Shown: positions 9,779 to 30,982, counted from the stretch's first letter. The stretch is 64,000 bases of DNA from Patescibacteria group bacterium (GCA_041662625.1 JBAZSB010000002.1:12024-76023); one strand, 5' to 3'. The notes: generated by a model not told the origin, from the sequence alone. Program-made: numbers and translations.

Positions 9779-12700
9779 TTACGGCCCCAGATCCCGGTAC
9801 TTCAGCGAGTAGCTGCAACTGCTGCCCACGGAGTAGGCCCGGATGCGGAGGTAATACCAGCCGGTACTGTTTGGTTTATAGGTGAAGCTGAACTGAAGAT
9901 TACCACCGCTGTCATCGTTGTAGGCAACGCGGACAGTGCCGGCAGAATTGGAGTACAGCTCACCGTAGTCATCGCCAATGCCGCCAGTTGTGTTGAAATT
10001 GTAGCGGCGGCCGCTTACCAGATACACTCTGAACCAGTCGTAGCGATCGGCGCTCGACAAGGTGTGGGGTCCGTGGGCCTGTTCCGTAGCCGTCGGGTTA
10101 TTCAACACTGTGGAACCGGAAACAATGTTGTCAGCCGGATCCCAAGCATCATTGGCAGGCGGTGGCGGTATGACGGCCAAATCCCGGTACTTCAGCGAGT
10201 AGCTACAATTACTACCTACTGAGGAGGCCCGGATACGGAGGTAATACCAGCCGCTGACTGTCGGCGCATAGGTAAAACTGAACTGCAGGTTACCACCACT
10301 GTCGTCATTGTAAGCGACGCGAGTGGTACCCGTTGCATTGGAGTACAACTCGGCGTAATCATTACCGGTCCCGCCAGTTGTGTTGAAATTGTAGCGACGG
10401 CCGCTTACCAGATACACCCTGAACCAGTCGTAGCGATCCATATTGGAAAGCGTATGTGGTCCATGGTTCTGCTCTGCAGTGGTCGGGTTGTTTAGCACTG
10501 TGGCGCTGGAGACAATCCCGTCAGCCGGATCCCAGGCGTCGATAATAGGTGTTGGAATAGTAGTAATATTCGACTCCAGCACCGTACCATCAACTTTATC
10601 CTGCAGGATAATGAACACTTGGGGTGGTGGCGCTTGGCCTAAGGGCACAGCAAACCAAATCCTGGTCAGGTCAGAGGCTTTACCAAGAGCACAGAAGCCG
10701 TAGATCCGACGTCGACTGCCGTCTGGTTTTGCCTCATAGATCTCAACCCAGGTTCGAGCGGCACTGGTGTTAAGGCCGCAAGTCACACAGTAGGCTGAAC
10801 TGAAAATCCGGTCAGGATATTCAGCCCAGTTACTGATTGACAAGAGATAGCGGGTCCAGTTACCACTGGAGGTGCTGTATTCTTCACTGCCAATGATGGT
10901 GAGCTGAGGAATTGGAACCAACTCCAAAGGCGAAATCACCTCAAAGGTAACGCCTCCTTCATTGTTGCTTTCATCCTCCTCGCTCACCTCGCTGTCACAG
11001 TCAGCATAAGCGCGCCAAGTGAAAATCCCGGAGCTGTCACAATGATCCAGATCAAAAATCACTTCCGCTGTCTGGCCAGAAGCCAGGGCCGGCAGGCGTT
11101 GCTTCAGGAAAAAATTGTTCCAGGTCAAGCCAACATTGAAAGCTGGCGCATCAACCGGACCAATATTTCCTGCCACAATAGTTACCTTGATCGGATCACC
11201 AGTCCAGGGATCAAGAGGATCGACTGAACAGTTCATGATGACGCAGTCAGCTCGCCGCGGTGGCAGGACTGTCACTGAAGCGCTTGCGGAGTTGTCGCCT
11301 TCGTTGCTTTCGGCCACAACATTGCCACTGTCAACGACCGCAGTCACCGTCTGTGTCCCTTCAGCTGTCAGATTGAAATTGACACTGAAAGGCACACTGC
11401 CACCCGCGGGAATCGCCGGCAGGTCAACAGTTGCTGTCTGCCCGCTGAAACTGATGGCCAGTTGGCAGACGCCAGAGGCCTCATTGCCACTGTTAGACAT
11501 TACACCCGAAACCGTGGCTGTTCCGCCAACTCGCAGTTCAGCCGGGCTGACTGAAAGGTTTGCAAGTGTCAGGTTAGGTTGAGCCGGCGGCGGCAAAGCT
11601 TGGATGATTGTCGATTCAGAGTTATCACCTTCGTTATACTCAGCAATAACCCCGGTTGAATCAACATAAGCATCCACCTTATAGCTGCCTTCGGCCTGTA
11701 TCCCGAGGTTGAAGGTGTGGTAATACACTCCGCCGTGAGACAAGCCGTCGATCTCAATGGCTTGACTGCTCTGGCCGGCAATGCCGACCGTCAGCACAAA
11801 CGGCGTATTGATGTTCACGTCGCCATCATTAATGATCCCAACCTGAATGCAAAGAGGATCACCAGTATGAACTTCGGCTGTTGCCAGTTCAAGTGATACA
11901 AACTTCAACTGGGCTTTTAGATCGGCTTCGTTAATAACCTTGAAACCGACTTTGACTTGGCAACCTTCAGCCGCCTGATTGATGACGTGCCAAACGTCGT
12001 TAATCCGAACGCAGGCAACCAGATAGTAGTCACCGGGTTCAGTCGAGACGTAGCTGCTGCCGACACTGCCGCTTTTCGTCTGACCCGGTTGTAAAGTTAC
12101 GGGCGTCGACATGTAGCTGGAGAAATCAACCCAGACGTTTTCGGGCAACCGGTAGGGGAAAAGCGACGGGCCTTGGTAGGTCACCACTTGGTCAGTCGGA
12201 TTTTCCACGGTGTAAGTTATCCTGGGACAAACATAGGGCAAATACGGCCCAGTGCTATCCTCGGTTAACCCAGCGACCAGCCTAAGCGGCGCTTCGGGAA
12301 AAGGCGGTTGAGGCGGTGGTTCGGGGTCAGGCAGCTTTTCCACGACAGTCACGGTCACTCTCTCTGACTGAATCGACCGGTCGTCGTAAAGCTCAATCCA
12401 TGTTTCTGCCGTACCGATGTTATTGGCAATGATGTAGCCATTGTCACCGGAGATGACAAAGACACTTGGGCTAGACGAAATGAAAAGCACTTGCACCCCA
12501 GTCATCTCATTGCCGTACTGGTCAAACACTTGAGCCGTGGCCCAGCCGTCCGTGGCATACTGCCAAGTAGTTTGCGTCAGATTGATCCGCAACGTTGTTG
12601 GCGTGGGTGCCGGTGTTGGCGGGGGCGGGGGTGTAGCTTCGGTTGTCACTGTCACCTCGTTGCTCCAACCAAAAACCAGCTCGCTGGCCGTAACTGCTGC

Positions 12701-14176
12701 CAGCTGATAGGTGCAGCTATGGCTTGGCTCCAATGGATAATCAGTCCACTGAGTAAAGCCACTGACCAGTTTGGCAATCTTTACCCCGTCACGAAACAGC
12801 CAGAGAAATGGCGCATACGGGTAGGCCGTGTTTTGCCACTGGAGGAACGCCGAGTTGTAGCCATCAGCAGTACCTTGCAGGGTAAAGCTGCCGGGATTTC
12901 CCGGGCCAGTAATGGTCACGATATTGGAGACATCAAGCGCGCCAGTACTATTGGACATGGCAAAGACTTGATATTGCCGTGTGCTGCCTGTTGGTAGGCC
13001 TGCTTCAGTGAATTCCCGAAGTGTGGTCTGGCCGATTTCAGTGCCGTTGGCAAACACGGCGTAGTAGTCGCATGTTGGACCACCTTCAATCCAAATAGTG
13101 TTGTGGTTTTCTGACATCGGTTTGCCGGTCAGAGTTAGGGCACTGAATTCACCGGTTGGCTCAAACACTTCAACCAGTGTACCGTCCAGACGGTGAAGTT
13201 CTACGCTGCCTGATTTGCAGTACCCGTTTTGGAAACACTGCTGGCCGTTAATGAAGTCACTGGTCGGACAGCCTAACACTGTTCCATCGTCCATCGGCAT
13301 ATCCGGACCATAGCGCTGGCAACCGCGAGTGTTGTCCCAACGACCGTAGCGGTAGAACTCCCAATACTTGCCGGGGATCAGGTAGGCCTGACTGCCAAAA
13401 AGCGGATCATAGATGATGATCGACTCTTCACCTCGGGCGTTGCGGAAGTTCTGGCAGAGGTAGCGGAACGGAGCCCAGTTATGGACAAAGATTCCGTCAC
13501 CGTCATCGATTGGCCAACCTACGCCATCCAAACCACCGTGGCGGTTGTAGCAGTTATTGATTTGTCGATCAATCGCTTGACCATCAGCAAACCGACCAAT
13601 GACCGAAAAACCAGGATAGTGTAACCAGCCTTTGACGAAGTAGTTAGTACTAAGTCGTTCTCCCGGCTCTACTTTCCAAGTGCCATCAGCGTTCTGACTC
13701 ATTGGCAACAGACGGAATGGCTTGGTGGAATTATTGATGTTTTGTTCAAACACCTCAATTCCATCCCTCATCACCCGTGAAACAATACCGACGTGGCCAG
13801 AACCACTATCGCAGGATGTCCAACCGTTATTCCACCAAATGATAAAGTCGCCAATCTGGGGCGGTACCACACTGCTATCGTTGGAAACAGCATGGTAACC
13901 CAACCTCTCCGGCAACCGCAACCACATATTGGCTGCACATCCGACTTCGTAGTCAATCACCTTATGGTACGCGGCAGCGAATCTCTTGGCCAAGTTAACA
14001 CACTGGTATTCCGCTTGGCTGGCCGTACAAGGCTTCTCGGTGCAGTCACCATTAGAATACGCGGTGACTCCCATGAAAGAGCCAATTTCGCGTCCGTAGT
14101 CCGGACCACAGTCGTTCGGGCACTGACCTGACGCCACTGTCGCCACAAACATAACCACACAAAATATCGTTCTCAT
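9779..14176 (-). CDS. Giant secreted cell-wall hydrolase-like surface protein: signal peptide - CHAP domain - Ig-like/CARDB repeats - Pro-rich linkers - two C-terminal PPC (pre-peptidase C-terminal) domains
   Basis: Start moved to MRTIFCVVMFVATVASG (RBS GGAGGT 9 nt upstream). The CHAP motif has a Cys near YQCVNLAKRF and a His at SGSGHVGIV. NEGDNSxST repeats are CARDB-like, linked by PPPPTPAPTPT. The two C-terminal ~130-aa units (AWDPAD...RYDWFRVYL...YNDDSGGN...YYLRIRA) are PPC-like. GC is ~57% in an AT-rich backbone. Confidence 0.75.
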   Translation of the reverse strand: MRTIFCVVMFVATVASGQCPNDCGPDYGREIGSFMGVTAYSNGDCTEKPCTASQAEYQCVNLAKRFAAAYHKVIDYEVGCAANMWLRLPERLGYHAVSNDSSVVPPQIGDFIIWWNNGWTSCDSGSGHVGIVSRVMRDGIEVFEQNINNSTKPFRLLPMSQNADGTWKVEPGERLSTNYFVKGWLHYPGFSVIGRFADGQAIDRQINNCYNRHGGLDGVGWPIDDGDGIFVHNWAPFRYLCQNFRNARGEESIIIYDPLFGSQAYLIPGKYWEFYRYGRWDNTRGCQRYGPDMPMDDGTVLGCPTSDFINGQQCFQNGYCKSGSVELHRLDGTLVEVFEPTGEFSALTLTGKPMSENHNTIWIEGGPTCDYYAVFANGTEIGQTTLREFTEAGLPTGSTRQYQVFAMSNSTGALDVSNIVTITGPGNPGSFTLQGTADGYNSAFLQWQNTAYPYAPFLWLFRDGVKIAKLVSGFTQWTDYPLEPSHSCTYQLAAVTASELVFGWSNEVTVTTEATPPPPPTPAPTPTTLRINLTQTTWQYATDGWATAQVFDQYGNEMTGVQVLFISSSPSVFVISGDNGYIIANNIGTAETWIELYDDRSIQSERVTVTVVEKLPDPEPPPQPPFPEAPLRLVAGLTEDSTGPYLPYVCPRITYTVENPTDQVVTYQGPSLFPYRLPENVWVDFSSYMSTPVTLQPGQTKSGSVGSSYVSTEPGDYYLVACVRINDVWHVINQAAEGCQVKVGFKVINEADLKAQLKFVSLELATAEVHTGDPLCIQVGIINDGDVNINTPFVLTVGIAGQSSQAIEIDGLSHGGVYYHTFNLGIQAEGSYKVDAYVDSTGVIAEYNEGDNSESTIIQALPPPAQPNLTLANLSVSPAELRVGGTATVSGVMSNSGNEASGVCQLAISFSGQTATVDLPAIPAGGSVPFSVNFNLTAEGTQTVTAVVDSGNVVAESNEGDNSASASVTVLPPRRADCVIMNCSVDPLDPWTGDPIKVTIVAGNIGPVDAPAFNVGLTWNNFFLKQRLPALASGQTAEVIFDLDHCDSSGIFTWRAYADCDSEVSEEDESNNEGGVTFEVISPLELVPIPQLTIIGSEEYSTSSGNWTRYLLSISNWAEYPDRIFSSAYCVTCGLNTSAARTWVEIYEAKPDGSRRRIYGFCALGKASDLTRIWFAVPLGQAPPPQVFIILQDKVDGTVLESNITTIPTPIIDAWDPADGIVSSATVLNNPTTAEQNHGPHTLSNMDRYDWFRVYLVSGRRYNFNTTGGTGNDYAELYSNATGTTRVAYNDDSGGNLQFSFTYAPTVSGWYYLRIRASSVGSNCSYSLKYRDLAVIPPPPANDAWDPADNIVSGSTVLNNPTATEQAHGPHTLSSADRYDWFRVYLVSGRRYNFNTTGGIGDDYGELYSNSAGTVRVAYNDDSGGNLQFSFTYKPNSTGWYYLRIRAYSVGSSCSYSLKYRDLGP
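9790..10565. repeat. Tandem duplication of ~390 bp (2 units, ~88% identical) encoding the two PPC domains
   Basis: 9790-10175 versus 10180-10565 share long identical runs, for example cccggtacttcagcgagtagct...ggaggtaataccagcc...gccagttgtgttgaaattgtagcg.cggccgcttaccagatacac.ctgaaccagtcgtagcgatc. Confidence 0.85.
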
Positions 14177-14231
14177 TTCTCGATACCTCCATATTGTCAA
14201 AGGTCTATGGTATTTCTCTTCTACTCACATC

Positions 14232-15030: not shown

Positions 15031-15131
15031 ACTTTTTTGGTAAAAAATAAAGCGCTTGGGGCGCTATATTGAAACTCTTTGATTCTATTCTCATTTTATC
15101 ACTCCTAAAAACCGTGTCAATAGCAGTTATT

Positions 15132-16892
15132 TTAAAAAGTCAGCTCTTCTGGCTCGACTCGTCCATTAAGAGTCGAAGCAGACTCATCTGGTTCGGCCGG
15201 TGCTAAAACCAACCGGCAAAGCCTCAGCTCATCGTAAGAAAACCGGCCGCCTAGTTTTTCAAAAACCGGCGAAAGCCGCTCAAACCCCAGTTCATTAAAA
15301 GCTGCTGCTATTTCGGCCAGAGATTTTTGCAATGGCATTGAAAGTATCCGATTCAGATCCGCCTTCTCTACCAGATTTTTTGCCGCCAGCTTTTCCAAGT
15401 GATTTAAAATTGTGCCTTGGGTTAAGCCGCGCTGTTTGGCAATGGCCGCGATATCCTTGCCAGCGCGCCAAAGCGTTAAAGTTTCCATTTTAGTATCGGT
15501 TTTAATCTTTACGCGACGGTGCGAAGGGCGGGCGTTCAGATCACCGCCGCAGGCAATGATAAAATCGCGCTGTTGTTTTTCAATTTCTGCCGGTAAAACT
15601 TCAGCCAGCTCGGCTTGAGTCTTAAACGATAAATCCAAAAAATCTTTGTCTTTTTCTAAAACCTGCTTATCAACTTCAAAAGCGCGGCGATTATACCCAA
15701 GCAAAAAAAGTCCGGAAAGCCGCCGCACCCGCGACAGCGCCACGTAGCCTTGGCCGGCTTCAAAAACCTTGCTCAAATCAATTACGGCCTGATCCAAACT
15801 CATGCCTTGGCTTTTGTGAATGGTAATCGACCAGGCCAGCCGCAAAGGCAGCTGGCTGATTTTGGCGCGCGGGATGCCGTTTTCTTCGGCGGTCCAGTCT
15901 GCCGGTAAAACTTCAATCTGCCGGCTGTCTTTGGTTTGAACAATTGGATAATTGCTTTTCTCGTCAAAGCCTAATACCGTGCCGAGCGTGCCGTTGACAT
16001 ACCGATTGCCCGAATCATTTTTGGTAAACATCACAGCCGCGCCTTTTTTTAAACTTAAAACCTCCGGTGACAGACAGCCTTTCTGCAAAGCCGCCACCAG
16101 CGGTTTTGGCCCGCGGCCGGACATGATAAAATCCATCGCCTTGCCTGGCAGCTCGTTTAATTTTTTATCATTAATGTGGTCAACATCGGCATTATGAGAA
16201 AAAAGTTTTGGCGCACCGGCCGGCGCGGCTAAATATTCTATAACCTGAAGTTTAATCAAAGCCAAATGCGAATCAGAAAATTTGTTTTGGCGAATGGCCT
16301 GCAAAACGTTTAAAAAATCACCATCATCCTGTCGGTATTGCTCAGTTAAATAACAAACCTTTAAATCGGCTTTTTGCCAAACAAACGACTGAAAAGCAAA
16401 TCGCTGTTTGGCAGTACCAAAAAGATCAGTGGCAGCCTCCTCTTCATCCTTCTTTAAAACCGGCGGCAGCTGAAAAAAATCGCCGACTAAAATTATTTGC
16501 AAACCGCCAAACGGGCTGGAATTTTTTTTAACTTTCCGGCAAACGGCGTCAATCATTTCCAAAGTCTGTGGTTTTAGCATTGATACTTCGTCAACAATCA
16601 AAACCTTGGCATTGGCAATGCGTCTGGCCACCCGCCTGTTGGCGGCAATGTTAGTTAGGTCTGATTTGCTTAATTTTTCTTTGATGCCAATGCCGGACCA
16701 GGAATGAATAGTCAGCCCGCCGATGTGAGTCGCGGCAATGCCGGTGGCCGCGGTGATTGCCGGTTCAATGCCAAAAGATTTCAGGTAACTGACATATTCA
16801 TTAATAACATAGGTTTTGCCCGAGCCGGGTTGGCCGGTTAAAAAAACATTAACGCCGGTTTTCATTATTGCTAACGCTTGGGACTGTTTCAT
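15132..16892 (-). CDS. SF1 ATP-dependent DNA helicase, PIF1/RecD-like (AAA_30), with a C-terminal HTH-like tail
   Basis: Walker A GQPGSGKT near the N-terminus, Walker B LIVDEVSM, the PIF1-like motif VGDFFQLPPV and QYRQ in the helicase core. Confidence 0.8.
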   Translation of the reverse strand: MKQSQALAIMKTGVNVFLTGQPGSGKTYVINEYVSYLKSFGIEPAITAATGIAATHIGGLTIHSWSGIGIKEKLSKSDLTNIAANRRVARRIANAKVLIVDEVSMLKPQTLEMIDAVCRKVKKNSSPFGGLQIILVGDFFQLPPVLKKDEEEAATDLFGTAKQRFAFQSFVWQKADLKVCYLTEQYRQDDGDFLNVLQAIRQNKFSDSHLALIKLQVIEYLAAPAGAPKLFSHNADVDHINDKKLNELPGKAMDFIMSGRGPKPLVAALQKGCLSPEVLSLKKGAAVMFTKNDSGNRYVNGTLGTVLGFDEKSNYPIVQTKDSRQIEVLPADWTAEENGIPRAKISQLPLRLAWSITIHKSQGMSLDQAVIDLSKVFEAGQGYVALSRVRRLSGLFLLGYNRRAFEVDKQVLEKDKDFLDLSFKTQAELAEVLPAEIEKQQRDFIIACGGDLNARPSHRRVKIKTDTKMETLTLWRAGKDIAAIAKQRGLTQGTILNHLEKLAAKNLVEKADLNRILSMPLQKSLAEIAAAFNELGFERLSPVFEKLGGRFSYDELRLCRLVLAPAEPDESASTLNGRVEPEELTF

Positions 16893-16900
16893 AAAGATAA

Positions 16901-17614
16901 CTAGACAAAATTAATATAATCCCGCCAATACTCATATAATGCTCTGGTGGCTAGTAAATCACCGACATTGTATTTGGCAATGTCTAGAAATTTCTTTTCT
17001 TTAAAAAGCTTTCCGACATCATCGCCGGTAATGCCAGAAGCTTTCGGACTGGCAATGCCAAACGCCCGGCTCCAAAGATGCAAATTGCCTTTTTTCCTGG
17101 CGGCGCCGTAAAAAGTCAACTGGTCTAATAAATCAATGTGCCGCGCGCCGAATTTCTGGCTGGATAAATAACGGTTGGACATTAAATCTTTGGTCGGTTT
17201 AATTTTGTGAACAGCCGAGCGGATCATTAAAAAAGGCGCATCAAAACCGCGGCCGTTGAAACTGACAAAATTTTGGTAATTAGCCGCTCCCTGCCAAAAA
17301 TTTTGCAACATTTCCGCCTCAGTCATCGGTTTAAATTTAAATCCATTTTCTTCAAATTCCGCCAAGCTCTGCCCGGGCGCCTGAAAATAAATTGCTCCTT
17401 GGTTCTTTTCATAGTCCAAAATTCCAATTACCGCGATCTCGCCAGTCAGCGGTGAAAACCCCAGCCAATTTTTTAAATCAGTTAAATTGGCCTGATATTC
17501 ATTCTCATCTTTGGCTTCTTTCCTGATCCAATTAGTTAAAGAACTTTGGGTGGCTTCGTCCAAACTATCAAAATCCTCGCCAACAGTTTCTAAGTCAAAA
17601 ATTAGAGTAGACAT
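16901..17614 (-). CDS. RNase H-like 3'-5' exonuclease (PolB-exonuclease-like, YprB/MrfB-type)
   Basis: N-terminal Exo I motif IFDLETVG plus later acidic/His motifs (FNGRGFDAPFL, YNVGDL); ~237 aa as expected for this family. Confidence 0.6.
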   Translation of the reverse strand: MSTLIFDLETVGEDFDSLDEATQSSLTNWIRKEAKDENEYQANLTDLKNWLGFSPLTGEIAVIGILDYEKNQGAIYFQAPGQSLAEFEENGFKFKPMTEAEMLQNFWQGAANYQNFVSFNGRGFDAPFLMIRSAVHKIKPTKDLMSNRYLSSQKFGARHIDLLDQLTFYGAARKKGNLHLWSRAFGIASPKASGITGDDVGKLFKEKKFLDIAKYNVGDLLATRALYEYWRDYINFV

Positions 17615-17732
17615 ATTGCGGTTTATTAAAATGATATTTAGTTATTCTCAAGCTGATCTAAACCAGTACTATTATACCTTAATAATTCAACTCTTGACAT
17701 ATATTTTTAATCGAGTATTATGTAAATAAGAT

Positions 17733-17776
17733 CACGACGAAAAGTCCCCTTTAAGGTTCTGTCCTTATGGGGTCCT
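17733..17776. terminator. Bidirectional stem-loop terminator
   Basis: CCCCTTTAAGG-ttctgt-CCTTATGGGG with T-runs on both sides; 40 nt downstream of the NYN gene stop. Confidence 0.5.
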
Positions 17777-17808
17777 TTTCATATATGAAAGCTTTTTGCT
17801 TAATTCAT

Positions 17809-18264
17809 TCATAAAACTAATTTTTTGGCAGCCGCTTTCTTTAATAATCCAGAATACTTAAATATATTAGGGACTATTAAGGTCTCTAATTTGTTTTGTT
17901 CTCTTAAATACCGGATCAAACAATAAAAGTCACCATCGCCAGTAACAATAATTGCTTTATTGTAATTTTTGTATTCAATCATCGTATACAAAACTAATTC
18001 TGTATCAACATTGCCTTTAACCCGGCCGTCAGGTAATTCCATCGTTGGTTTAAAAATAAGAATATAGCCACATTTTTGCAAAGACAGGTAAAGACTGGCA
18101 TTGCCTGGCACGTAACCAACAAATAAGTAAGCTACTGCCACATTGTATTTTTCCTTAAGATAGATTCTAAATTTCAGCCAATCTAAAATCCAACCTTGAT
18201 CACGAATGGCCAGATTTAAATTCTGGCTATCAATAAAAGCGTAATTATTTTTACCAAAAGTCAT
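17809..18264 (-). CDS. NYN-domain (PIN-like) predicted ribonuclease
   Basis: AFIDSQNL at the N-terminus and the TGDGDF motif, both characteristic of NYN/LabA-like domains. Confidence 0.7.
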   Translation of the reverse strand: MTFGKNNYAFIDSQNLNLAIRDQGWILDWLKFRIYLKEKYNVAVAYLFVGYVPGNASLYLSLQKCGYILIFKPTMELPDGRVKGNVDTELVLYTMIEYKNYNKAIIVTGDGDFYCLIRYLREQNKLETLIVPNIFKYSGLLKKAAAKKLVL

Positions 18265-18418
18265 AAAAAAATAGCGCCAAAACGCTATGTTTAATCAACA
18301 CTTTCACTAACTTTGAAGTGGGTCCTAGGCTCAACCCCGCACCTTTATCTAAAAAACTATTATCAGGGCCCCAGGCTCAACATAGCGCGAAAAGCTCTAA
18401 GACCCTGATAATAATCCT

Positions 18419-18655
18419 TTAAAGAGCCGGCCGAAATAGGCGGCATTCTATCGTATTACCATTGGGTAGTTTGACCGTTACCCGCGATGGATAGCGACAA
18501 CCTAAAATCGCTTTGGCCAAAGGCGACAAAAAGGATATTTTGCCGGATTTTGGATCACCAGTTGGTAAATCAACGATTTCCAACTCTTTGATTTTGCCAT
18601 TTAAAACGACTAAGACTTTGTCCCCAATTGTAATTTTTTTAGACTTTTTGAACAT
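18419..18655 (-). CDS. Stand-alone GreA/GreB C-terminal (FKBP-like) domain protein
   Basis: 78 aa; KISFLSPLAKAILGCRYPSRVTVKLPNGNTIECRLFR matches the GreA C-terminal signature (KIS..SPlgkALlG...GD.v.v..P.G...y.I). Confidence 0.55.
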   Translation of the reverse strand: MFKKSKKITIGDKVLVVLNGKIKELEIVDLPTGDPKSGKISFLSPLAKAILGCRYPSRVTVKLPNGNTIECRLFRPAL

Positions 18656-18679
18656 AGCACGAAAAGCTTCTTATTAGTT

Positions 18680-18742
18680 TGTCATACTGAATTTATTTCA
18701 TCATCTCTACTAACTAGATTCTGAAACAAGTTCAGAATGACA
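18680..18742. repeat. REP/MITE-like nested inverted-repeat element (TGTCAYYCTGAAYTTRTTTCA family), copy 1
   Basis: TGTCATACTGAATTTATTTCA ...spacer... TGAAACAAGTTCAGAATGACA. The two arms are mutual reverse complements and each arm is internally palindromic. Confidence 0.7.
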
Positions 18743-18958
18743 ATGTAAGGGTTATCCCCAGCTTTTGCCGACGGCGGAAAAAACCGACGGCTCAAACTTA
18801 ATTTTTTCAAAAAAATTCACCGCAACTTGGATTCGGTGAACATTTTTTCAAAGTTCTTATTTACTTTTTGGTTTTTGCGACGGCGCTAGAGTATGCGACG
18901 GCTTTATTCTTATTAATAATCTTAGCATATTGAATTGCGATGTCAATAGTTTAATTGT

Positions 18959-19564
18959 TTAATCTTTTTTAACAAACTTTTGGTATTCTTCATCCTGATC
19001 AATTAATTTCTCAATTAACCCCCGCAAAAAATCGGCTTTGGAAATTGGCGTGTTATGTGTCTTCCAATGTAAAAACCGTTCAATCCGAGAATTGATTCTC
19101 AAAGTGAATTTGATCGTTGGCGCTTCGTGGCCTTCGCCCTTTTCCACAGTTTGCAAAAAATCAAGGATAATCTTTTCCAAATTTTTCTCAGTATAATATT
19201 GAAGCTGTAAGAATTTAGCTGTGCTTTTATCTTTTTGCAGATGAAGCAAATTTTTATTAATCAGCTTTCCTTTTTCTGAAAGATAAAGGATTGGTTTATG
19301 GTGCGCTAAGGCAATAGCAATTAAATAACCACTTTCGGGTAAAGGTCGACTGCCTTCAATAATTAAAGCATCCATCTTTTCTAAAAGAACTTCCCCGGCC
19401 TGATTAATTTTTTCTAAATCCTGATTAGAAAAACCGGAGATATTTTTGTCGGCCAAATTACTCATCACTAAAACTCCAGCTTGATTCAAAATATCAATTA
19501 TTTTAGAAAATCTGCTTTGGAAATTTTCTGATGCTTGATTGTCAGCAGCAAAATAGAGGCGCAT
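18959..19564 (-). CDS. Hypothetical protein: N-terminal Rossmann-like (nucleoside 2-deoxyribosyltransferase-like) domain plus C-terminal ribbon-helix-helix-like segment
   Basis: The N-terminus MRLYFAADNQ...EGSRPLPESGYLIAIALAHHKPILYL resembles NDT/DNPH1-type folds. The C-terminus TIKFTLRINSRIERFLHWKTHNTPISKADFLRGLIEKLI has a beta-alpha-alpha RHH pattern. This assignment is a weak inference. Confidence 0.3.
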   Translation of the reverse strand: MRLYFAADNQASENFQSRFSKIIDILNQAGVLVMSNLADKNISGFSNQDLEKINQAGEVLLEKMDALIIEGSRPLPESGYLIAIALAHHKPILYLSEKGKLINKNLLHLQKDKSTAKFLQLQYYTEKNLEKIILDFLQTVEKGEGHEAPTIKFTLRINSRIERFLHWKTHNTPISKADFLRGLIEKLIDQDEEYQKFVKKD

Positions 19565-19573
19565 TTAAATAAG

Positions 19574-20500
19574 TTAATAAATTATTTCTCCGGCGATATC
19601 TCTAGCCATTAATTCCTTTATTTTCGAAATATTTTTGGTTTGGGCAGTTGCCCACATGAATTTAGTTACAGTTGTTTCCCAGGTTAAATTATTAATTATT
19701 AAAATATTTTTTGGTGCCAAAACCGCGCCAGAAATTTTCTTTGACCAGATTACCACCGGCATGTCCGGCGTAATTTTTTCTAAAAGAAAAATTAAATCCT
19801 CGGGCAAAGTCTGGTAAATATTGGCATTAACCACAATTCCTTCTTTATCACTGACTTGTTTAGCCAGGGCTTTGGGGCTTAGAAACGGACCAAGCTGGAT
19901 TATCTCGATTTTATCGTTTAACTTGTCAAAAAAATTTACCTTGCCGCTGTTTTGCAAGGCCGCTTTTTCAAAAATCCGGATGCTGAAATCAATCCGGCCC
20001 AAAATACTTGGGGCTGGCGCGGTAAAAACATTTAATGATTCCTCTAGCGAACGACTGGCCTGGTTGGCGCGTAAAAGCCGGTTACCAAACATTAGGCAGA
20101 CTTCGGTGATATTATAATTGGCGCTTTGCACTGAATTAATTAAGTTAGCGCGAATTTCCAGTTTTTTGGTGTCAGCCGGATTGGATTGGCTGCCGGTAAA
20201 AATGATGGGTTTGCTCAAATTTTGCAGCAAAAATGAAAGAGCAGAAGCGGTGTAAAGCAGATTATCAATACCGTGTAAAATCACAAAACCATCAGCCGAA
20301 TCCAAACGGCTGTAAATTTCTTTGGCCAACTTTAACCAAAGCTCGGGCGTGATATCAGCGCCGGCTTTTTTGAAAAGCAAAACTGGCTCAATATCGGCAA
20401 TAATATTAAGCTCTTTGGTCTGGTCAAGCCAGTCTTTGGGCTGCAGGCCAAAAGGCTGGCTGGCCACCATTAAATAGATTTTTTTGCGGTTTTGGGTCAT
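19574..20500 (-). CDS. L-asparaginase/GatD-family-like protein, possibly non-catalytic (no N-terminal TGGT threonine motif)
   Basis: GFVILHGIDNL matches the asparaginase hinge/active-site region GFVI.HGTDT, and the two-domain length fits. The N-terminal catalytic TGGTIA motif was not seen (IYLMVASQPFG instead). Confidence 0.5.
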   Translation of the reverse strand: MTQNRKKIYLMVASQPFGLQPKDWLDQTKELNIIADIEPVLLFKKAGADITPELWLKLAKEIYSRLDSADGFVILHGIDNLLYTASALSFLLQNLSKPIIFTGSQSNPADTKKLEIRANLINSVQSANYNITEVCLMFGNRLLRANQASRSLEESLNVFTAPAPSILGRIDFSIRIFEKAALQNSGKVNFFDKLNDKIEIIQLGPFLSPKALAKQVSDKEGIVVNANIYQTLPEDLIFLLEKITPDMPVVIWSKKISGAVLAPKNILIINNLTWETTVTKFMWATAQTKNISKIKELMARDIAGEIIY

Positions 20501-26594: not shown

Positions 26595-27062
26595 TTATTT
26601 TTTTACTTTAAATACCAGCCAATTCTTTTTTTGCGCCGTAAACTGGGTTAAAACATAAACTCCCCGGAGCTTTTTGCCCTTCAATTCAAACTTTAAAGAC
26701 TTGGATGTATGTTCCAACAGCTTAAATTTGCCTTTGTCCAAAATTTCCACCAGGCCGGCACCGTAATTACCTTTCGGGATTACTCCGGCAAAATTAATAT
26801 AGGCAACTGGATGATCTTCTACGGCAACAGCCAAATGTTTGACTCCGGCAATAGTTGGAATACCTTTGGGTACTGCCCAAGATTTTAAAACAACCGGACC
26901 TTTAATAATTTTATCTGGCAATTCCAACCTGAAATCATAATGCAAATGTGAGGCTGAATGTTTTTGGACAACAAAACGTGACTGGCTTTTTATTTTAGCT
27001 TGTGCCTTAGGCTCCGGCGTTTTACTAAACTTTCTTTTCTTTTGATATTTTTCTAAAGCCAT
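26595..27062 (-). CDS. Stand-alone LigD-type 3'-phosphoesterase (PE) domain protein
   Basis: RFVVQKHSASHLHYDFRLE...LKSWAVPKG matches the LigD PE active-site block (HxxHxHYDFRLE, WAVPKG); 155 aa. Confidence 0.7.
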   Translation of the reverse strand: MALEKYQKKRKFSKTPEPKAQAKIKSQSRFVVQKHSASHLHYDFRLELPDKIIKGPVVLKSWAVPKGIPTIAGVKHLAVAVEDHPVAYINFAGVIPKGNYGAGLVEILDKGKFKLLEHTSKSLKFELKGKKLRGVYVLTQFTAQKKNWLVFKVKK

Positions 27063-27068
27063 ACAAAT

Positions 27069-27130
27069 AGAAATCAGAAATTAGAAATCAGAAGAATAAT
27101 TCTGATCTCTGATCTCTGATTTCTGATCTC
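27069..27130. repeat. Long imperfect inverted repeat built of tandem AGAAATCAGA units
   Basis: agaaatcagaaattagaaatcagaagaat | aattctgatctctgatctctgatttctgatctc, lying between two minus-strand genes. Confidence 0.7.
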
Positions 27131-27134
27131 TGGA

Positions 27135-27416
27135 TTATCCCTTAAGATAAACCAAATCGCCTTCTTTGACTGACTGGGCCACTTTTAAACCAACAGCGTC
27201 ACCAGATTTAGCGACACTCACCTGTTCATGTTCGACTTGCATTGAATCAACCGGCTGCTCAAAATCACCACCATGAGTCGCGATGATAATGGTATCGCCG
27301 ACTTTAAGTTGGCCGGCTAATTCCAAGACTCCGACCCCGATTTTGTTAAAGTAGTGGGTGATTTTGCCAATCTGCTTACCTTTGGGTAATTCAATTTTTT
27401 GTGCATCGTCTGCCAT
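27135..27416 (-). CDS. Small beta-barrel protein resembling translation-factor domain 2 (EF-Tu D2-like)
   Basis: 93 aa; GKITHYFNKIGVGVLELAGQLKVGDTIII...GDAVGLKV...EGDLVYL is the pattern of the EF-Tu domain-2 barrel. Confidence 0.4.
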   Translation of the reverse strand: MADDAQKIELPKGKQIGKITHYFNKIGVGVLELAGQLKVGDTIIIATHGGDFEQPVDSMQVEHEQVSVAKSGDAVGLKVAQSVKEGDLVYLKG

Positions 27417-27461
27417 ATACTAAAATTCTAGCTTTTAAGCCAAAATAAGTCAATGGAGTCA

Positions 27462-27514
27462 AAAAAAGAGACCAGCTGACAGAGTACCTCCTTTCTTCTG
27501 TCAAACTGGTCACA
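27462..27514 (-). terminator. Rho-independent terminator ending the GC-rich purine operon
   Basis: On the minus strand: GACCAGTTTGACAG...CTGTCAGCTGGTC followed by TCTTTTTTT. Confidence 0.6.
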
Positions 27515-27540
27515 AGTAGCATTCAGGGCATCCCTCCGGA

Positions 27541-28842
27541 TTAGCCCATGTAGTTGTCGAGTTCTTCCCGACGCATCTGATCGAAGGCATACACTGCCGG
27601 ATTGGTCTGCCCCAGAATCTGCATCGCCGCTCCGATCGCGTTGCCTTCGGGCCAAGTCGTCAGATTCGGCGTCTGCGATGGCAGGTGTACGCTTGACCAA
27701 AGATCATCCGGAAATTGCTCGAGAGTCGCTGGGACCGAAATCACTGGCCAAGGACTGTGAGCCGCGACGATCGGACCCAGACCATTGGACCGGCCGGCCT
27801 TGACCACGATGACGCCACCTTGCGGATAGTCATAGAACAGCCGTTCCAGACGCTGCAGCCCCTCAACCGGACTCTTGTGGCCGGAAGCCACGATCCGTTC
27901 AACGGTGACTCCAGGCAACTGGGGAACTTTTGGTGCTTCATCCTTGTCGGACCCAAGCCAGACAACCAGCGCCTGTCTCGGGAGCACCAAGCGTTCGGCC
28001 ATCTGGGCGACGTAACGGTAGTTCTCTTCGACTTGGCCAAGGACAGCAGCGCCACCATCGCGGAACACCTGCTTATCGAGCGGTTTGCCATTTTCCCAAA
28101 GACGCCAACTGTCGTTGTCCACGACATCGGAAACTCGGAGTTCGCTGTCGGCTTCGATCTTGATGTCAAGCCATGTGAGGCCAAAGTTCGCCCAGGCCCG
28201 CTCAAGGATCAAAGACACCCGGCGAACCAATTGATCAAGCTTGGCCATATCCGCCAGATCGGTGATGACCCCACTAGCAGGAATCTTGGCAAACGGGCTA
28301 ACCCGATGTCGACTCTCACCCTCGCCCTCTTCATGCCAGATCGGCTTCTTGGGCAAGGCAAGATCCCAGGTATCCTTGAAGGGATCAAGGATCAACGGAT
28401 CGTCGCAGGGTAGTGATAGGCCTTTCCAATCTCGACCAGTCGTCTTGAGGAAGAACTCAACCAACAACCGGTGAAAACGGTACGGCTTGGTTGGATCAGC
28501 CGTTCGAAGCTGGGGATTGCGCATCAGGAAACTGCCAACTCCCAGCCGTCGGGCGACAATCTCCAGCAGCAACATCAGCGACCGCAGCGCGACAAACTCC
28601 GTTTCGGAAATCTGCTCCACGTAAGCCACCGGCACGTCGCAAGTCCGAAGAAGTTCGAAAACGCGGCAAGTGGTTATGGTAGCACATTGGGCTTTGGACC
28701 CAAACTTCTGGGTAAAACTCGGGTCATCATGGGCAGTGATGTCCGAACCATTCCTGACGATCACCAGATCGTCTCGGCCTTCTACTGCGAAGATACCCTT
28801 GGTTTTGCCCTTGGCTATCTGCTTACCTAGTGTATACTCCAT
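27541..28842 (-). CDS. purC-purE: Bifunctional SAICAR synthetase (PurC) - N5-CAIR mutase/AIR carboxylase (PurE) fusion, PAICS-like
   Basis: The N-terminal half has PurC blocks (GKTKGIF, DDLVIVRNGSDITAHDD, WLDIKIE). The C-terminal half has PurE blocks (VVWLGSDKDE, IVASGHKSP similar to SAHRTP, AGRSNGLGPIVAAHSPWPVISVP). GC ~60%. Confidence 0.75.
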   Translation of the reverse strand: MEYTLGKQIAKGKTKGIFAVEGRDDLVIVRNGSDITAHDDPSFTQKFGSKAQCATITTCRVFELLRTCDVPVAYVEQISETEFVALRSLMLLLEIVARRLGVGSFLMRNPQLRTADPTKPYRFHRLLVEFFLKTTGRDWKGLSLPCDDPLILDPFKDTWDLALPKKPIWHEEGEGESRHRVSPFAKIPASGVITDLADMAKLDQLVRRVSLILERAWANFGLTWLDIKIEADSELRVSDVVDNDSWRLWENGKPLDKQVFRDGGAAVLGQVEENYRYVAQMAERLVLPRQALVVWLGSDKDEAPKVPQLPGVTVERIVASGHKSPVEGLQRLERLFYDYPQGGVIVVKAGRSNGLGPIVAAHSPWPVISVPATLEQFPDDLWSSVHLPSQTPNLTTWPEGNAIGAAMQILGQTNPAVYAFDQMRREELDNYMG

Positions 28843-28863
28843 GGCATTCCTTTCTCCGACTTT

Positions 28864-29397
28864 TCAGCCGATCTGTTCCTGGTCTTCCGAATCTTCCGGT
28901 CGACCTTCCGATCTCTGACCACAACGGTCACAACCGTCACACTGGTGACCCACGGCAAACCGTTTCAACTCATCGAGCATCTCCAGCACTCCCGCTGCGG
29001 GTTGACCGGATTTCTCGAGTACGGCATCAGCGACCTTGATCGAACATTTGACGCGTAGCGCCACGGCAATGGCGTCGCTGGGCCGCGAATCAACCTTGAC
29101 GACCCCGCCTGCGGTTTTCAACTCGATATAGCCCAGGAAAATCCCGTTACCAGTGAGTTGGTTGATGCCAACTTCCAAAACCTCAGCATCCAAGCCAGCC
29201 AAGATGTTCACGATTAAGTCGTGGGTCATCGGCCTTATAGGCACTTGACCAGCCAAGGCCATACCGATGGCCACAGCTTCGGCTGGACCAATCATGACTG
29301 GTAAGATCAGAGCCGCCGCTTCACTGTGTAACAACACTGTTGGTCGACCTTGGCTATCCTGGACTACAGCCAACGCATGGAGTTCTTGTCTATCCAT
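28864..29397 (-). CDS. Bifunctional-nuclease (BFN/DUF151) family protein with a Cys-rich acidic C-terminal tail
   Basis: The PSDAIAVALR motif and domain length match BFN; the C-terminus carries CDGCDRCGQ. Confidence 0.55.
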   Translation of the reverse strand: MDRQELHALAVVQDSQGRPTVLLHSEAAALILPVMIGPAEAVAIGMALAGQVPIRPMTHDLIVNILAGLDAEVLEVGINQLTGNGIFLGYIELKTAGGVVKVDSRPSDAIAVALRVKCSIKVADAVLEKSGQPAAGVLEMLDELKRFAVGHQCDGCDRCGQRSEGRPEDSEDQEQIG

Positions 29398-29476
29398 CGC
29401 ATTCTCTCCTTATGTGGAGTAAGGGTGGGCCAGCCCGGCAAAGGACCGGCCCACACCAGTTTCAGGTTGGAGAACT

Positions 29477-30745: not shown

Positions 30746-30873
30746 CAGTCTCTCCTTTCAATCAAACACTGTCTCCAATCTCTCTCCCGCCCTGAAACAG
30801 ATCAGGCCGGAACACTTCTTTTTGTTTCTTTGCCGTTTCTCCTTCCTTATCTTTTGTAACTTCCCTCGCTTGG

Positions 30874-30946
30874 TTGTGAAAAAACAAGTCTTTCCCTCCC
30901 TTTGGAAAAGACTATTAAAACTGGGTTTAATTTAACAAAAAAAAGC
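30874..30946. promoter_or_regulatory. Conserved ~73-bp upstream element, copy 1 (second copy at 34510..34590), containing the palindrome AGTCTTTCC-N9-GGAAAAGACT
   Basis: ttgtgaaaaaacaagtctttccctccctttggaaaagactattaaaactgggtttaatttaacaaaaaaaagc compared with ttgtcaaaaaaacaaagtcttcccctcacgttggaaaagacttttccctacaaaactggctttaatttaacaaaaaaaagc. Both lie 5' of minus-strand operons. Confidence 0.6.
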
Positions 30947-30982
30947 TATAAAGTCAATCACATGATGCTAATCTACAATTTA

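What the first reader, a model, noticed from the sequence alone, without database searches (positions are those of the whole stretch)
15132..18655. PIF1/RecD-like helicase + PolB-exo-like 3'-5' exonuclease pair followed by NYN nuclease and an orphan GreA C-terminal domain
The helicase (586 aa) and the RNase-H-fold exonuclease (237 aa) are adjacent and co-directional with a 9-nt gap. This is reminiscent of the B. subtilis MrfA(helicase)-MrfB(exonuclease) repair pair but uses a PIF1-type rather than DEXH helicase. Downstream on the same strand are an NYN-domain RNase and a 78-aa protein that is only the FKBP-like C-terminal domain of GreA/GreB. That is a domain that normally docks in the RNAP secondary channel region, here lacking the coiled coil. 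Whether this is a repair module, a nucleic-acid defence cluster or unrelated neighbours is open.
Basis: partly seen in the sequence, partly recalled or inferred. Interest (0 to 1): 0.5.

Follow-up and report, generated by a model that had tools for sequence, protein, structure and literature searches.

The report
Exonuclease–Pif1 helicase operon, unrelated neighbours
In this Patescibacteria (candidate phyla radiation) genome, a small DNA-trimming exonuclease gene and a Pif1-type DNA helicase gene form a tight two-gene unit that is kept together in only one sub-lineage, while the adjacent NYN nuclease and mini-GreA genes are incidental neighbours, so the find is real but modest.

Summary
All four ORFs and their domain assignments are real: Pif1 helicase with a C-terminal HTH_40, a PF10108 PolB-exo-like DEDDy exonuclease, an NYN domain and a GreA C-terminal domain only. 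They lie on the minus strand, so transcription runs GreA-CTD > NYN > exo > helicase. NYN and GreA-CTD are therefore upstream of the pair, not downstream, and the exo–helicase gap is 8 nt.

The four genes are not one module. Of 80 genomes carrying the exonuclease, one has a Pif1 gene within 10 kb, one has an NYN fragment and none has the GreA-CTD. Of 80 metagenome contigs carrying the helicase, two have the exonuclease.

The exo>Pif1 pair (5–9 nt gap) is kept in every examined member of one monophyletic helicase clade. That is six distinct flank contexts in relatives, plus the window, and all flanks differ. A reverse-order pair (L120) arose independently.

The GreA-CTD belongs to a different conserved block (asparaginase-like > 201-aa protein > GreA-CTD) and ends in a strong terminator. 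No defence-system signature and no phage origin were found.

Best reading: three unrelated transcription units. One is a lineage-specific operon joining two widespread, uncharacterised DNA-metabolism genes that plausibly cooperate as a helicase–exonuclease. It resembles DinG-exo, WRN and MrfAB by analogy only. Interest is low to moderate.

The parts
16901..17614 (-). Stand-alone PolB-exonuclease-like 3'-5' exonuclease (PF10108/COG3298 family, DEDDy type). First gene of the two-gene operon.
   Evidence: Pfam PF10108 3.9e-21 and PF13482 1.9e-11. D7, E9, D125, Y215 and D219 are invariant in 16 homologues. AF2 model has pLDDT 88.8, and its best PDB folds are the exonuclease domains of Pol epsilon and archaeal PolB, E about 3e-9, TM about 0.6. 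The profile-versus-PDB search hits only family-B polymerases.
16893..16900 (-). 8-nt spacer between the exonuclease stop and the helicase start (no room for a promoter).
   Evidence: Sequence. The equivalent spacers in relatives are 5-9 nt.
15132..16892 (-). Pif1-family SF1B helicase (core about residues 1-420) with a C-terminal HTH_40 domain (467-560). Second gene of the operon.
   Evidence: Pfam PIF1 2e-36 and HTH_40 2.9e-21. PDB best hits are human PIF1 8e-71, ScPif1 and BaPif1. Walker A is GQPGSGKT, motif II is DEVSM, and the Pif1 signature plus motif III reads LEMIDAVCRKVKKNSSPFGGLQIILVGDFFQLPPV, with P127, F128, G129, G130 and Q132 invariant.
17671..17700 (-). Promoter-like site (ATGTCA-18-TATAAT) about 57 nt upstream of the exonuclease start. 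Candidate operon promoter; consensus match only.
   Evidence: 10 of 12 matches. It lies within a roughly 30-nt stretch absent from the homologous junction in L004.
17809..18264 (-). NYN-domain (LabA-like) protein gene. Separate unit, not linked to the pair in relatives. The acidic motifs IDSQN, VDTEL and TGDGDF are present.
   Evidence: Pfam NYN 1.2e-11. It is found near exo or helicase in only 2 of the 160 census loci (L004, L140). It is replaced by a Nudix gene in the 89%-identical relative L082.
17735..17808 (-). Decayed 3' tail of the NYN gene (three in-frame stops compared with homologues), which also folds into a stable hairpin (17737-17782).
   Evidence: Read-through translation compared with L004 and L140. 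DNA alignment with L004. Fold -26.5 kcal/mol, z -4.85.
18419..18655 (-). 78-aa stand-alone GreA/GreB C-terminal-domain protein (no coiled-coil N-domain). Last gene of a different conserved block.
   Evidence: Pfam PF01272 1e-12. Full-length GreAs align only through their residues about 80-150, and no N-domain is encoded upstream. The family consists of proteins of similar length.
18343..18423 (-). Strong terminator-like hairpin plus U-run directly after the GreA-CTD stop codon. It separates that gene from NYN.
   Evidence: Inverted repeat with 19-nt arms. RNA fold -44.7 kcal/mol, z -5.72, 0 of 200 shuffles as stable.
18959..20500 (-). Asparaginase/GatD-like gene (19574-20500) and a conserved 201-aa gene with no Pfam hit (18959-19564). 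Together with the GreA-CTD gene they form the block conserved in relatives.
   Evidence: Co-linear in L171-174, L175 and L176 at 59-65%, 70-78% and 68-76% identity, with variable downstream genes.

Best explanation
The region holds three independent transcription units that are neighbours by accident of genome arrangement.

(1) A conserved block: asparaginase-like gene > 201-aa gene > stand-alone GreA C-terminal-domain gene, closed by a strong intrinsic-terminator-like hairpin.

(2) A monocistronic NYN (LabA-like) gene whose 3' tail has decayed.

(3) A bicistronic operon: PolB-exo-like DEDDy 3'-5' exonuclease > Pif1-family helicase with a C-terminal HTH_40 domain.

Both operon genes belong to families that are widespread and usually unlinked in Patescibacteria. 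Their fusion into one operon happened once, in the ancestor of one clade that includes a Buchananbacteria-labelled MAG, and it has been retained there.

Inferred mechanism. The two products cooperate as a helicase-nuclease in replication or repair. Pif1 loads on a 5' single-stranded tail, gap or flap and translocates 5'>3'. The complementary strand it peels off presents a 3' end that the exonuclease can degrade 3'>5', which is the same direction along the duplex. This is the polarity combination of the exonuclease-DinG fusion of Staphylococcus aureus.

Shown: the ORFs, the families, intact catalytic motifs, the fold, the tight spacing, and clade-restricted conservation with shuffled flanks. 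Inferred: co-transcription, physical or functional cooperation, the substrates, and the polarity of each enzyme.

My confidence that these are three separate units and that there is no four-gene module is about 0.9. My confidence that the pair reflects functional cooperation rather than neutral linkage is about 0.55.
For: Families and active sites.

Pair conserved with different flanks:
- L082, Nudix upstream.
- L083/84, DapB | pair | APS-kinase-like.
- L085, Memo/PGA_cap | pair | TrmB.
- L086/87, response regulator | pair | FBPase.
- L088, MerR-like | pair.
- L169, hypothetical | pair | HD_4.
Spacers are 5-9 nt. In a neighbour-joining tree of helicase cores, all exo>helicase pairs form one clade with the window as its deepest branch. 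The sister clade (51-61% identity; L089-L098, L170) is unpaired.

Independent juxtapositions in the opposite order. In L120, a 415-aa Pif1 is followed after 15 nt by a PF10108 exonuclease. In L022, Pif1 > PAP2 > exonuclease.

No four-gene module. In the exonuclease census, 1 of 80 loci has a helicase, 1 of 80 has an NYN fragment and 0 of 80 has GreA-CTD (71-72 of the 80 have at least 1.5 kb of flank on a given side). In the helicase census, 2 of 80 loci have the exonuclease.

GreA-CTD block. Terminator after GreA-CTD. Promoter-like site upstream of the exonuclease.

No defence signature. Viral relatives of the exonuclease are at most 35% identical and are not paired with Pif1.

Polarity analogy: SaDinG has a 3'-5' exonuclease N-domain plus a 5'-3' helicase, and both activities are needed for crosslink repair (PMC12345164).
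Against: In the great majority of genomes sampled, the two genes are not neighbours. An obligate complex would usually leave a stronger neighbourhood signal, and no fusion protein was seen among the top hits.

Within the clade, an 8-nt spacer means the helicase depends on the upstream promoter. The pair could therefore be locked in without any functional tie.

The conserved neighbours of the exonuclease elsewhere are cell-envelope genes, not DNA-repair genes: ftsX/envC/ctpA in Nitrospirota, and polyprenyl synthase/uppS and PAP2 in Patescibacteria.

The independent re-pairings are few: two tight and one loose among about 160 loci. By a rough estimate about 0.3 would be expected by chance, so the evidence is only marginal.

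Promoter and terminator calls are consensus or energy matches only. In the scan, terminator-like sites were not enriched over shuffles (7 against 6.1).

No transcript, interaction or activity data exist.
Confidence: 0.55

Rival explanations
1. Neutral linkage. The exonuclease and Pif1 are two independent housekeeping genes that became adjacent once by rearrangement. The pair persists only because the helicase lost its own promoter (operon lock-in). There is no functional cooperation.
For: The genes are unlinked in about 97-99% of sampled loci outside the clade. All exo>helicase pairs trace to one ancestral event. The other recurrent neighbours of the exonuclease are envelope genes. No fusions appear among the top hits.
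Against: Both are DNA enzymes with complementary polarities. The pair survives total flank turnover in six distinct relative contexts, plus the window. At least one independent tight pairing exists in the reverse order (L120). Operons usually join functionally related genes (general knowledge).
Confidence: 0.33
2. A four-gene nucleic-acid defence or repair island (GreA-CTD + NYN + exonuclease + helicase) acting together, for example against phage.
For: Four nucleic-acid-related domains lie on one strand within 3.5 kb. NYN and RecD-like models exist in PADLOC and give weak hits.
Against: No relative shares the four genes. The closest relative (89% nt identity) has a Nudix gene instead of NYN, and homology ends 14 nt upstream of the exonuclease. 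GreA-CTD belongs to another conserved block and is followed by a strong terminator. PADLOC hits cover only the P-loop N-terminal part of large proteins or a generic NYN. The flanks are housekeeping genes (glyA, folD, asparaginase-like). No integrase or phage signal was found.
Confidence: 0.03
3. A true MrfA/MrfB-type lesion-specific repair pair, homologous or orthologous to the B. subtilis mitomycin-C repair system.
For: It is a helicase plus 3'-5' exonuclease pair. The exonuclease also hits PF13482, the Pfam family that holds COG3359/YprB-type nucleases, and one source labels a homologue 'YprB with RNaseH-like and TPR domain'.
Against: MrfA is an SF2 DEXH helicase with DUF1998 (PMC7797055), whereas this helicase is SF1B Pif1. 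MrfB is DEDDh with a C-terminal TPR domain (PMC11194089), whereas this exonuclease is DEDDy (Y215-x3-D219), 237 aa, has no TPR, and matches PF10108 better than PF13482.
Confidence: 0.04
4. The exonuclease is a trans-acting proofreader or Okazaki/3'-end-processing factor for the replisome. The operon simply co-regulates two replication accessory factors (Pif1 as an accessory fork helicase) that act at different steps.
For: The fold and motifs are those of family-B polymerase proofreading domains. The family shows very high conservation in Patescibacteria, with the best 120 hits 68-95% identical. Eukaryotic Pif1 acts at forks and with Pol delta (PMC8998199, listed; otherwise my own knowledge).
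Against: No polymerase gene is a conserved neighbour. There is no evidence that it binds any polymerase. Bacterial Pif1 function is itself unknown (PMC3113762 and PMC9964779).
Confidence: 0.05

Closest known systems
Staphylococcus aureus DinG (N-terminal DnaQ-like 3'-5' exonuclease fused to a 5'-3' SF2 helicase; PMC12345164)
   Same: Same combination of activities and the same N-to-C / 5'-to-3' order: exonuclease first, then a helicase of 5'-3' polarity. [quoted passage not shown]
   Different: DinG is an SF2 Fe-S/XPD-like helicase, and its exonuclease belongs to a different DEDD family from the PolB-exo-like PF10108 one here. It is one polypeptide. Here there are two genes, an SF1B Pif1 and a PolB-type DEDDy nuclease, and in most genomes they are unlinked.
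Bacillus subtilis MrfA/MrfB (YprA/YprB) mitomycin-C repair pair (PMC11194089, PMC7797055)
   Same: A separately encoded helicase and a metal-dependent 3'-5' DEDD exonuclease that act in one pathway. Both exonucleases fall in the PolB-exo/PF13482 neighbourhood of the RNase H-like superfamily (PMC3985635).
   Different: MrfA is a DEXH SF2 helicase with DUF1998, and MrfB is DEDDh with a TPR domain. Here the helicase is Pif1 SF1B with HTH_40, and the exonuclease is DEDDy without TPR. There is no homology at family level.
Pif1-family helicases (human PIF1, ScPif1, Bacteroides BaPif1, Thermotoga/Deferribacter Pif1-WYL)
   Same: Helicase core with all SF1B motifs, the Pif1 signature motif and a 2B region. 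The best sequence matches in the PDB are Pif1 structures.
   Different: It carries a C-terminal HTH_40 domain instead of the WYL or short tails described for bacterial Pif1 (PMC9964779). The 2B-domain Pfam hit is just below cut-off (21.4 against 23.9 bits). Operon linkage to an exonuclease was not found in the literature I searched.
[quoted passage not shown] 2014, PMC3985635)
   Same: Member by Pfam score, DEDDy motifs and predicted fold.
   Different: The family is itself uncharacterised, so membership gives chemistry but not biology.
WRN (RecQ helicase fused to a DEDD 3'-5' exonuclease), and eukaryotic Pif1 working with Pol delta / Dna2
   Same: The general logic of coupling a helicase to a DEDD exonuclease, or Pif1 to a family-B polymerase that carries the homologous exonuclease domain. 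(Basis: my own knowledge.)
   Different: WRN's helicase is SF2 with 3'-5' polarity. The eukaryotic Pif1 partners are polymerases or a PD-(D/E)XK nuclease. There is no evidence of shared ancestry of the association.
GreA/GreB, Gfh1 and Rnk secondary-channel factors (for the 78-aa protein)
   Same: Homologous C-terminal globular domain (PF01272), which in Gre factors anchors the protein to RNA polymerase. (Basis: my own knowledge.)
   Different: It lacks the N-terminal coiled coil that reaches the active site, so it cannot be a cleavage factor. It belongs to a family of roughly 60-120-aa stand-alone CTD proteins.

Membership tests
Pif1 family (SF1B helicase) | Match to the PIF1 family model above the curated threshold | tested here: met
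   PF05970 126.1 bits against cut-off 25.9, residues 8-206.
Pif1 family (SF1B helicase) | Closest solved relatives are Pif1, not RecD/Dda/UvrD | tested here: met
   Human PIF1 8.4e-71, ScPif1 2.9e-67, BaPif1 2.7e-57; RecD2 3e-6.
Pif1 family (SF1B helicase) | Pif1 signature motif between motifs II and III, plus Walker A/B | tested here: met
   GQPGSGKT and DEVSM are present, and the signature reads LEMIDAVCRKVKKNSSPFGGLQ-IILVGDFFQLPPV, read from the translation. P127, F128, G129, G130, Q132 and G137-P144 are invariant in 17 homologues. The comparison with the published consensus is from memory.
Pif1 family (SF1B helicase) | ATP-dependent 5'-3' DNA unwinding | not testable with these tools
   Needs biochemistry.
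RecD2 | Score at or above the equivalog cut-off of TIGR01448 | tested here: not met
   74.2 bits against 500.
PF10108/COG3298 PolB-exo-like exonuclease | Family model above threshold, and an RNase H-like fold closest to family-B polymerase exonuclease domains | tested here: met
   76.2 bits against 24. Foldseek best hits are Pol epsilon and archaeal PolB exonuclease domains, E about 3e-9, on a model with pLDDT 88.8.
PF10108/COG3298 PolB-exo-like exonuclease | Intact DEDDy catalytic residues (ExoI DxE, ExoII D, ExoIII Yx3D) | tested here: met
   D7, E9, D125, Y215 and D219 are invariant in 16 sequences.
PF10108/COG3298 PolB-exo-like exonuclease | 3'-5' exonuclease activity | not testable with these tools
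   Needs biochemistry. The family has no characterised member that I could find.
DnaQ / Pol III epsilon | PF00929-type DEDDh exonuclease | tested here: not met
   No PF00929 hit at E<=0.01. The general base is Tyr, not His.
MrfA/MrfB repair pair | Helicase is a DEXH SF2 helicase with DUF1998 | tested here: not met
   The helicase is SF1B Pif1 with no DEXH or DUF1998 hit. MrfA definition from PMC7797055.
MrfA/MrfB repair pair | Exonuclease is DEDDh with a C-terminal TPR domain | tested here: not met
   It is DEDDy, 237 aa, with no TPR hit. MrfB definition from PMC11194089.
Known anti-phage defence systems (PADLOC) | Proteins match system-specific models over most of their length, and partners co-occur | tested here: not met
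   The helicase matches only through its P-loop part (residues about 3-208) of much larger proteins. The exonuclease and GreA-CTD have no hit. NYN gives 5.3e-6 to a generic NYN model.
Conserved operon (gene-neighbourhood criterion) | Adjacency kept in diverged genomes whose other synteny is lost | tested here: met
   Met for exo>helicase within one clade, in six distinct relative contexts with different flanks. Not met outside the clade. Not met for NYN or GreA-CTD with the pair.
GreA/GreB transcript-cleavage factors | N-terminal coiled-coil domain (PF03449) with an acidic tip, plus the C-terminal domain | tested here: not met
   Only PF01272 is present, at residues 5-70 of 78. Full-length GreAs align only by their residues about 80-150, and nothing upstream encodes the N-domain. 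GreA NCBIfam models score 35 bits against a cut-off of 145.
NYN domain nucleases | NYN model above threshold, with conserved acidic residues | tested here: met
   45.7 bits against 24.2. D in IDSQN, D in VDTEL and D-x-D in TGDGDF were read from the translation. Assigning these as catalytic is from memory of the NYN/PIN literature.

The most novel reading that the evidence does not exclude
The PF10108 PolB-exo-like nuclease and the Pif1-HTH_40 helicase form a previously unrecognised two-component helicase-exonuclease of Patescibacteria, and possibly of other phyla that carry both. They would work together even where they are encoded apart. The clade-specific operon and the independent reverse-order pair (L120) would then be the 'Rosetta-stone' clue. 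This would give bacterial Pif1 its first defined partner and the PF10108 family its first function, for example 3'-end, flap or stalled-fork processing in organisms with minimal repair toolkits.
Probability: 0.25. Interest if true: 0.55.

Novelty: new variant of a known kind. Interest (0 to 1): 0.3.

Why it matters
Helicase-exonuclease couples such as WRN, exonuclease-DinG, MrfAB and RecBCD/AddAB are central to genome maintenance. Bacterial Pif1 helicases still lack a known physiological role or partner (PMC3113762, PMC9964779), and the PF10108 exonuclease family is uncharacterised.

A conserved exo>Pif1 operon in one Patescibacteria lineage is a cheap, testable lead for both questions: express the two proteins and test for interaction and coupled activity.

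The value is limited because the linkage is confined to one clade and the rest of the reported 'cluster' dissolves into unrelated neighbours. The negative result also matters. This locus should not be catalogued as a defence island or as an MrfAB homologue.

Tried and rejected
(1) Four-gene module: rejected by the two censuses and by the closest relative.

(2) Defence system: PADLOC gave only generic partial hits.

(3) Phage origin: PHROG hits are generic (Dda-like helicase, polymerase exonuclease subunit). IMG/VR relatives of the exonuclease are at most 35% identical, and only 3 of 38 have any distant SF1 helicase within 5 kb.

(4) RecD2 and DnaQ identities: rejected.

(5) MrfAB membership: rejected.

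(6) Structured RNAs: no Rfam family at gathering score in the whole window, and only sub-threshold noise in 18250-19000.

(7) A conserved functional partner for the exonuclease or the helicase elsewhere. The exonuclease has only lineage-specific envelope-gene neighbours, and the helicase has none.

(8) Exonuclease-Pif1 fusion proteins. None appears among the 120 best hits of either search.

(9) Literature on a Pif1-exonuclease operon, PF10108 function, or Pif1 in CPR: nothing relevant found.

(10) Structure of the 201-aa neighbour.

(11) The terminator-like site downstream of the helicase (15051-15065) is not distinguishable from chance (fold z -1.1; the terminator scan is not enriched).

Full report
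**Observation**

The four ORFs exist exactly where stated, all on the minus strand.

Pfam assigns the 586-aa protein to the PIF1 family (2e-36), with a C-terminal HTH_40 domain at residues 467-560. It assigns the 237-aa protein to PF10108 'PolB-exonuclease-like' (3.9e-21), with a weaker PF13482 hit. The 151-aa protein is NYN (1.2e-11). The 78-aa protein is the GreA/GreB C-terminal domain alone (1e-12).

Because the genes are on the minus strand, transcription runs GreA-CTD (18655>18419), NYN (18264>17809), exonuclease (17614>16901), helicase (16892>15132). NYN and GreA-CTD are therefore upstream of the pair, the exonuclease precedes the helicase, and the spacer is 8 nt. The public record of this contig (172 kb, 'Patescibacteria group bacterium') gives helicase and GreA-CTD protein accessions three apart, consistent with four consecutive genes.

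**What the proteins are**

- *Helicase.* It is a bona fide Pif1. Its best solved relatives are human PIF1 (8e-71), yeast Pif1 and Bacteroides Pif1, whereas RecD2 reaches only 3e-6 and the RecD2 equivalog model scores 74 bits against a 500-bit cut-off. Walker A, motif II and the Pif1 signature/motif III stretch (…PFGGLQIILVGDFFQLPPV) are present and invariant among 17 homologues.
- *Exonuclease.* It has the DEDDy set D7, E9, D125, Y215 and D219, invariant in 16 homologues. An AlphaFold model (pLDDT 88.8) matches the proofreading domains of Pol epsilon and archaeal PolB best (E about 3e-9). These are also the only sequence-level PDB matches. PF10108/COG3298 is an uncharacterised cluster next to the family-B exonuclease domain in the RNase H-like superfamily classification (PMC3985635).
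- *GreA-CTD.* The 78-aa protein is a genuine stand-alone domain. Full-length GreAs align only through their residues about 80-150, and no N-domain is encoded upstream or elsewhere in the window. Its closest relatives are all 43-83 aa, and about 60 of 104 representative clusters found are 120 aa or shorter.

**Is it a module?**

Both the exonuclease and the helicase belong to large families with many close homologues in public Patescibacteria data. Source labels span several named candidate phyla. The exonuclease search returned about 5,000 hits, the best 120 at 68-95% identity. The helicase search reached the 8,000 cap, the best 120 at 54-100% identity.

I ran two censuses.

- *Exonuclease-centred.* I took 80 species-representative genomes with up to 10 kb on each side (71-72 have at least 1.5 kb on a given side). 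One has a Pif1 gene nearby (L022, where a PAP2 gene lies between them), one has an NYN fragment (L004), and none has GreA-CTD.
- *Helicase-centred.* Among 80 metagenome contigs, two carry the exonuclease. One belongs to the window's own clade (L163). The other (L120) has the reverse order, a 415-aa Pif1 without HTH_40 followed after 15 nt by the exonuclease.

The conserved neighbours of the exonuclease elsewhere are envelope genes: ftsX-envC-ctpA in Nitrospirota, and polyprenyl synthase-uppS in some Patescibacteria. The helicase has no conserved neighbour.

**The pair is nevertheless a unit within one clade**

Every helicase I looked up at 63-67% identity to the window's has the exonuclease immediately upstream with a 5-9 nt gap (P0124, P0125, P0128, P0130, P0129). 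The flanks differ every time: DapB/APS-kinase-like, Memo/TrmB, response regulator/FBPase, MerR-like, and hypothetical/HD_4.

A relative with 89% nucleotide identity keeps the pair but loses homology 14 nt upstream of the exonuclease start. There, a Nudix gene replaces NYN.

In a neighbour-joining tree of helicase cores, these pairs form one clade with the window as its deepest branch. The sister clade (51-61% identity) is unpaired, including P0135. L120 and L022 sit on distant branches, so they are independent juxtapositions. One member of the clade is labelled Candidatus Buchananbacteria.

**NYN and GreA-CTD**

GreA-CTD travels with the two genes upstream of it. The asparaginase/GatD-like gene (59-65% identity), the 201-aa gene with no Pfam hit (70-78%) and GreA-CTD (68-76%) are co-linear in three further contexts whose downstream genes differ: radical SAM, bAvd-like and others. 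None of those downstream genes is NYN, the exonuclease or the helicase.

Directly after the GreA-CTD stop codon there is a 19-bp-arm hairpin plus U-run (-44.7 kcal/mol, z -5.7).

NYN has lost its C-terminal tail to three in-frame stops relative to homologues. In L004, a degraded NYN remnant sits in the same position upstream of the exonuclease, with DNA homology running through the junction, but no helicase follows. So NYN-exonuclease adjacency also occurs without the helicase, and the pair occurs without NYN.

A promoter-like site (ATGTCA-18-TATAAT, 17700-17671) lies between NYN and the exonuclease. These regulatory calls are consensus or energy matches, not proof.

**Defence or phage origin**

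PADLOC gives only partial P-loop matches to large RecD-like or PDC proteins and a generic NYN hit. It gives nothing for the exonuclease or GreA-CTD. The PHROG matches are generic replication functions. Exonuclease relatives in IMG/VR are at most 35% identical and not paired with Pif1. The flanking genes are housekeeping. I reject a defence-island reading.

**Mechanism (inferred)**

The operon co-expresses a 3'-5' DEDDy exonuclease and a helicase whose family translocates 5'-3'. A 5'-3' helicase moving along one strand exposes the complementary strand from its 3' end, so a 3'-5' exonuclease can follow in the same direction.

This is the arrangement of S. aureus DinG, where an N-terminal 3'-5' exonuclease and a 5'-3' helicase are both required for crosslink repair (PMC12345164). 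MrfAB is a looser analogue: its helicase is SF2 DEXH and its exonuclease is DEDDh with a TPR domain (PMC11194089, PMC7797055). Neither defining feature is met here.

I put about 0.55 on real functional cooperation and about 0.33 on neutral operon lock-in. The linkage is rare outside the clade. The independent re-pairings, two tight and one loose in about 160 loci, only marginally exceed a rough chance expectation of about 0.3. That expectation is my own estimate, assuming roughly 1,000 genes per genome.

**Novelty and verdict**

Each gene is an ordinary member of a known family. The Pif1 + PF10108 operon is an undescribed variant of the helicase-exonuclease theme, and I found no literature on it. 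It is a reasonable lead towards a partner for bacterial Pif1, whose role remains obscure (PMC3113762, PMC9964779). The four-gene 'cluster' as reported is not a functional entity. Interest is 0.3.

Noticed in passing
window 18735-18950 (minus strand); also L171:3545-3765, L175:2605-2825, L176:3765-3985: A conserved non-coding element lies between the 201-aa gene and the GreA-CTD gene. It starts with a strong promoter-like site (TTGACA-16-TGcTAAGAT). A direct-repeat pair GCCGTCGC-N10-GCCGTCGC follows, then a conserved GAACtTTGAAAA plus a variable-sequence hairpin and a T7 run (terminator-like). A second GCCGTC-N10-12-GCCGTCG pair sits just upstream of an extended -10-like motif. The layout is the same in four contexts, at 76% mean column identity. 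There is no Rfam family. It could be a small RNA or leader plus operator sites.
   Followed up: partly
L171 about 1420-1445, L175 about 642-667, L176 2014-2037: Further GCCGTC-N12-GCCGTC pairs lie just upstream of the asparaginase-like gene in relatives, which suggests a common regulator for the block. The 201-aa protein ends in a stretch that looks like a ribbon-helix-helix (IKFTLRINSRIERFLHW…ADFLRGLIEKL) and might be that regulator. This was read by eye only.
   Followed up: no
window 18959-19564 (minus strand): The 201-aa protein has no Pfam, NCBIfam, PHROG or PADLOC hit, yet is 70-78% identical in three other contexts and is always placed between the asparaginase-like gene and GreA-CTD. 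The single-sequence AF2 model was unusable (pLDDT 33.8).
   Followed up: partly
window 17735-17808; L004:1506-1751: The NYN gene is decaying. In the window its C-terminal tail is broken by three in-frame stops but is still recognisable (…KGPHKDRTLKG). In L004 only the C-terminal 81 aa remain as an ORF, directly upstream of the exonuclease.
   Followed up: yes
window 18651-18668, 18379-18396, 18268-18285: An 18-nt motif, AGCTTTTCGYGCTATGTT (minus strand), overlaps the GreA-CTD start codon. It recurs at 94% identity inside the loop of the terminator hairpin after that gene, and more weakly just upstream of the NYN start. This may be a remnant of a duplication or a shared translation-initiation region.
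   Followed up: no
window 9779-14200 and about 27000-35000: GC content is strongly heterogeneous. The 1473-aa surface-protein gene is 53% GC (GC3 58%) and the 27-35 kb stretch is 52-56% GC, against 32-47% for the genes around the finding. The cause could be horizontal acquisition, a binning or assembly chimera, or a compositional bias of particular genes.
   Followed up: no
L171-L174, position 1-130: A second GreA_GreB-only mini-gene (74 aa) lies about 4 kb upstream of the GreA-CTD orthologue in one relative, so these mini-proteins can be multi-copy.
   Followed up: no
L086/L087 9182-9547; L175 2861-3226 and 4272-4634; L176 5075-5395: Genes of the 23S_rRNA_IVP / bAvd-like four-helix-bundle type recur near both the pair and the GreA-CTD block in relatives. 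They may mark diversity-generating retroelements or other mobile cassettes, which could drive the local gene shuffling.
   Followed up: no
L036-L061 (Nitrospirota / Thermodesulfovibrionia loci): In these phyla the exonuclease orthologue sits immediately downstream of an ftsX - M23 peptidase (EnvC-like) - C-terminal processing peptidase cluster, in 13-20 loci and on the same strand. That is an unexpected context for a DNA exonuclease.
   Followed up: partly
whole window: No Rfam family, tRNA included, reaches gathering score anywhere in the 64 kb.
   Followed up: yes
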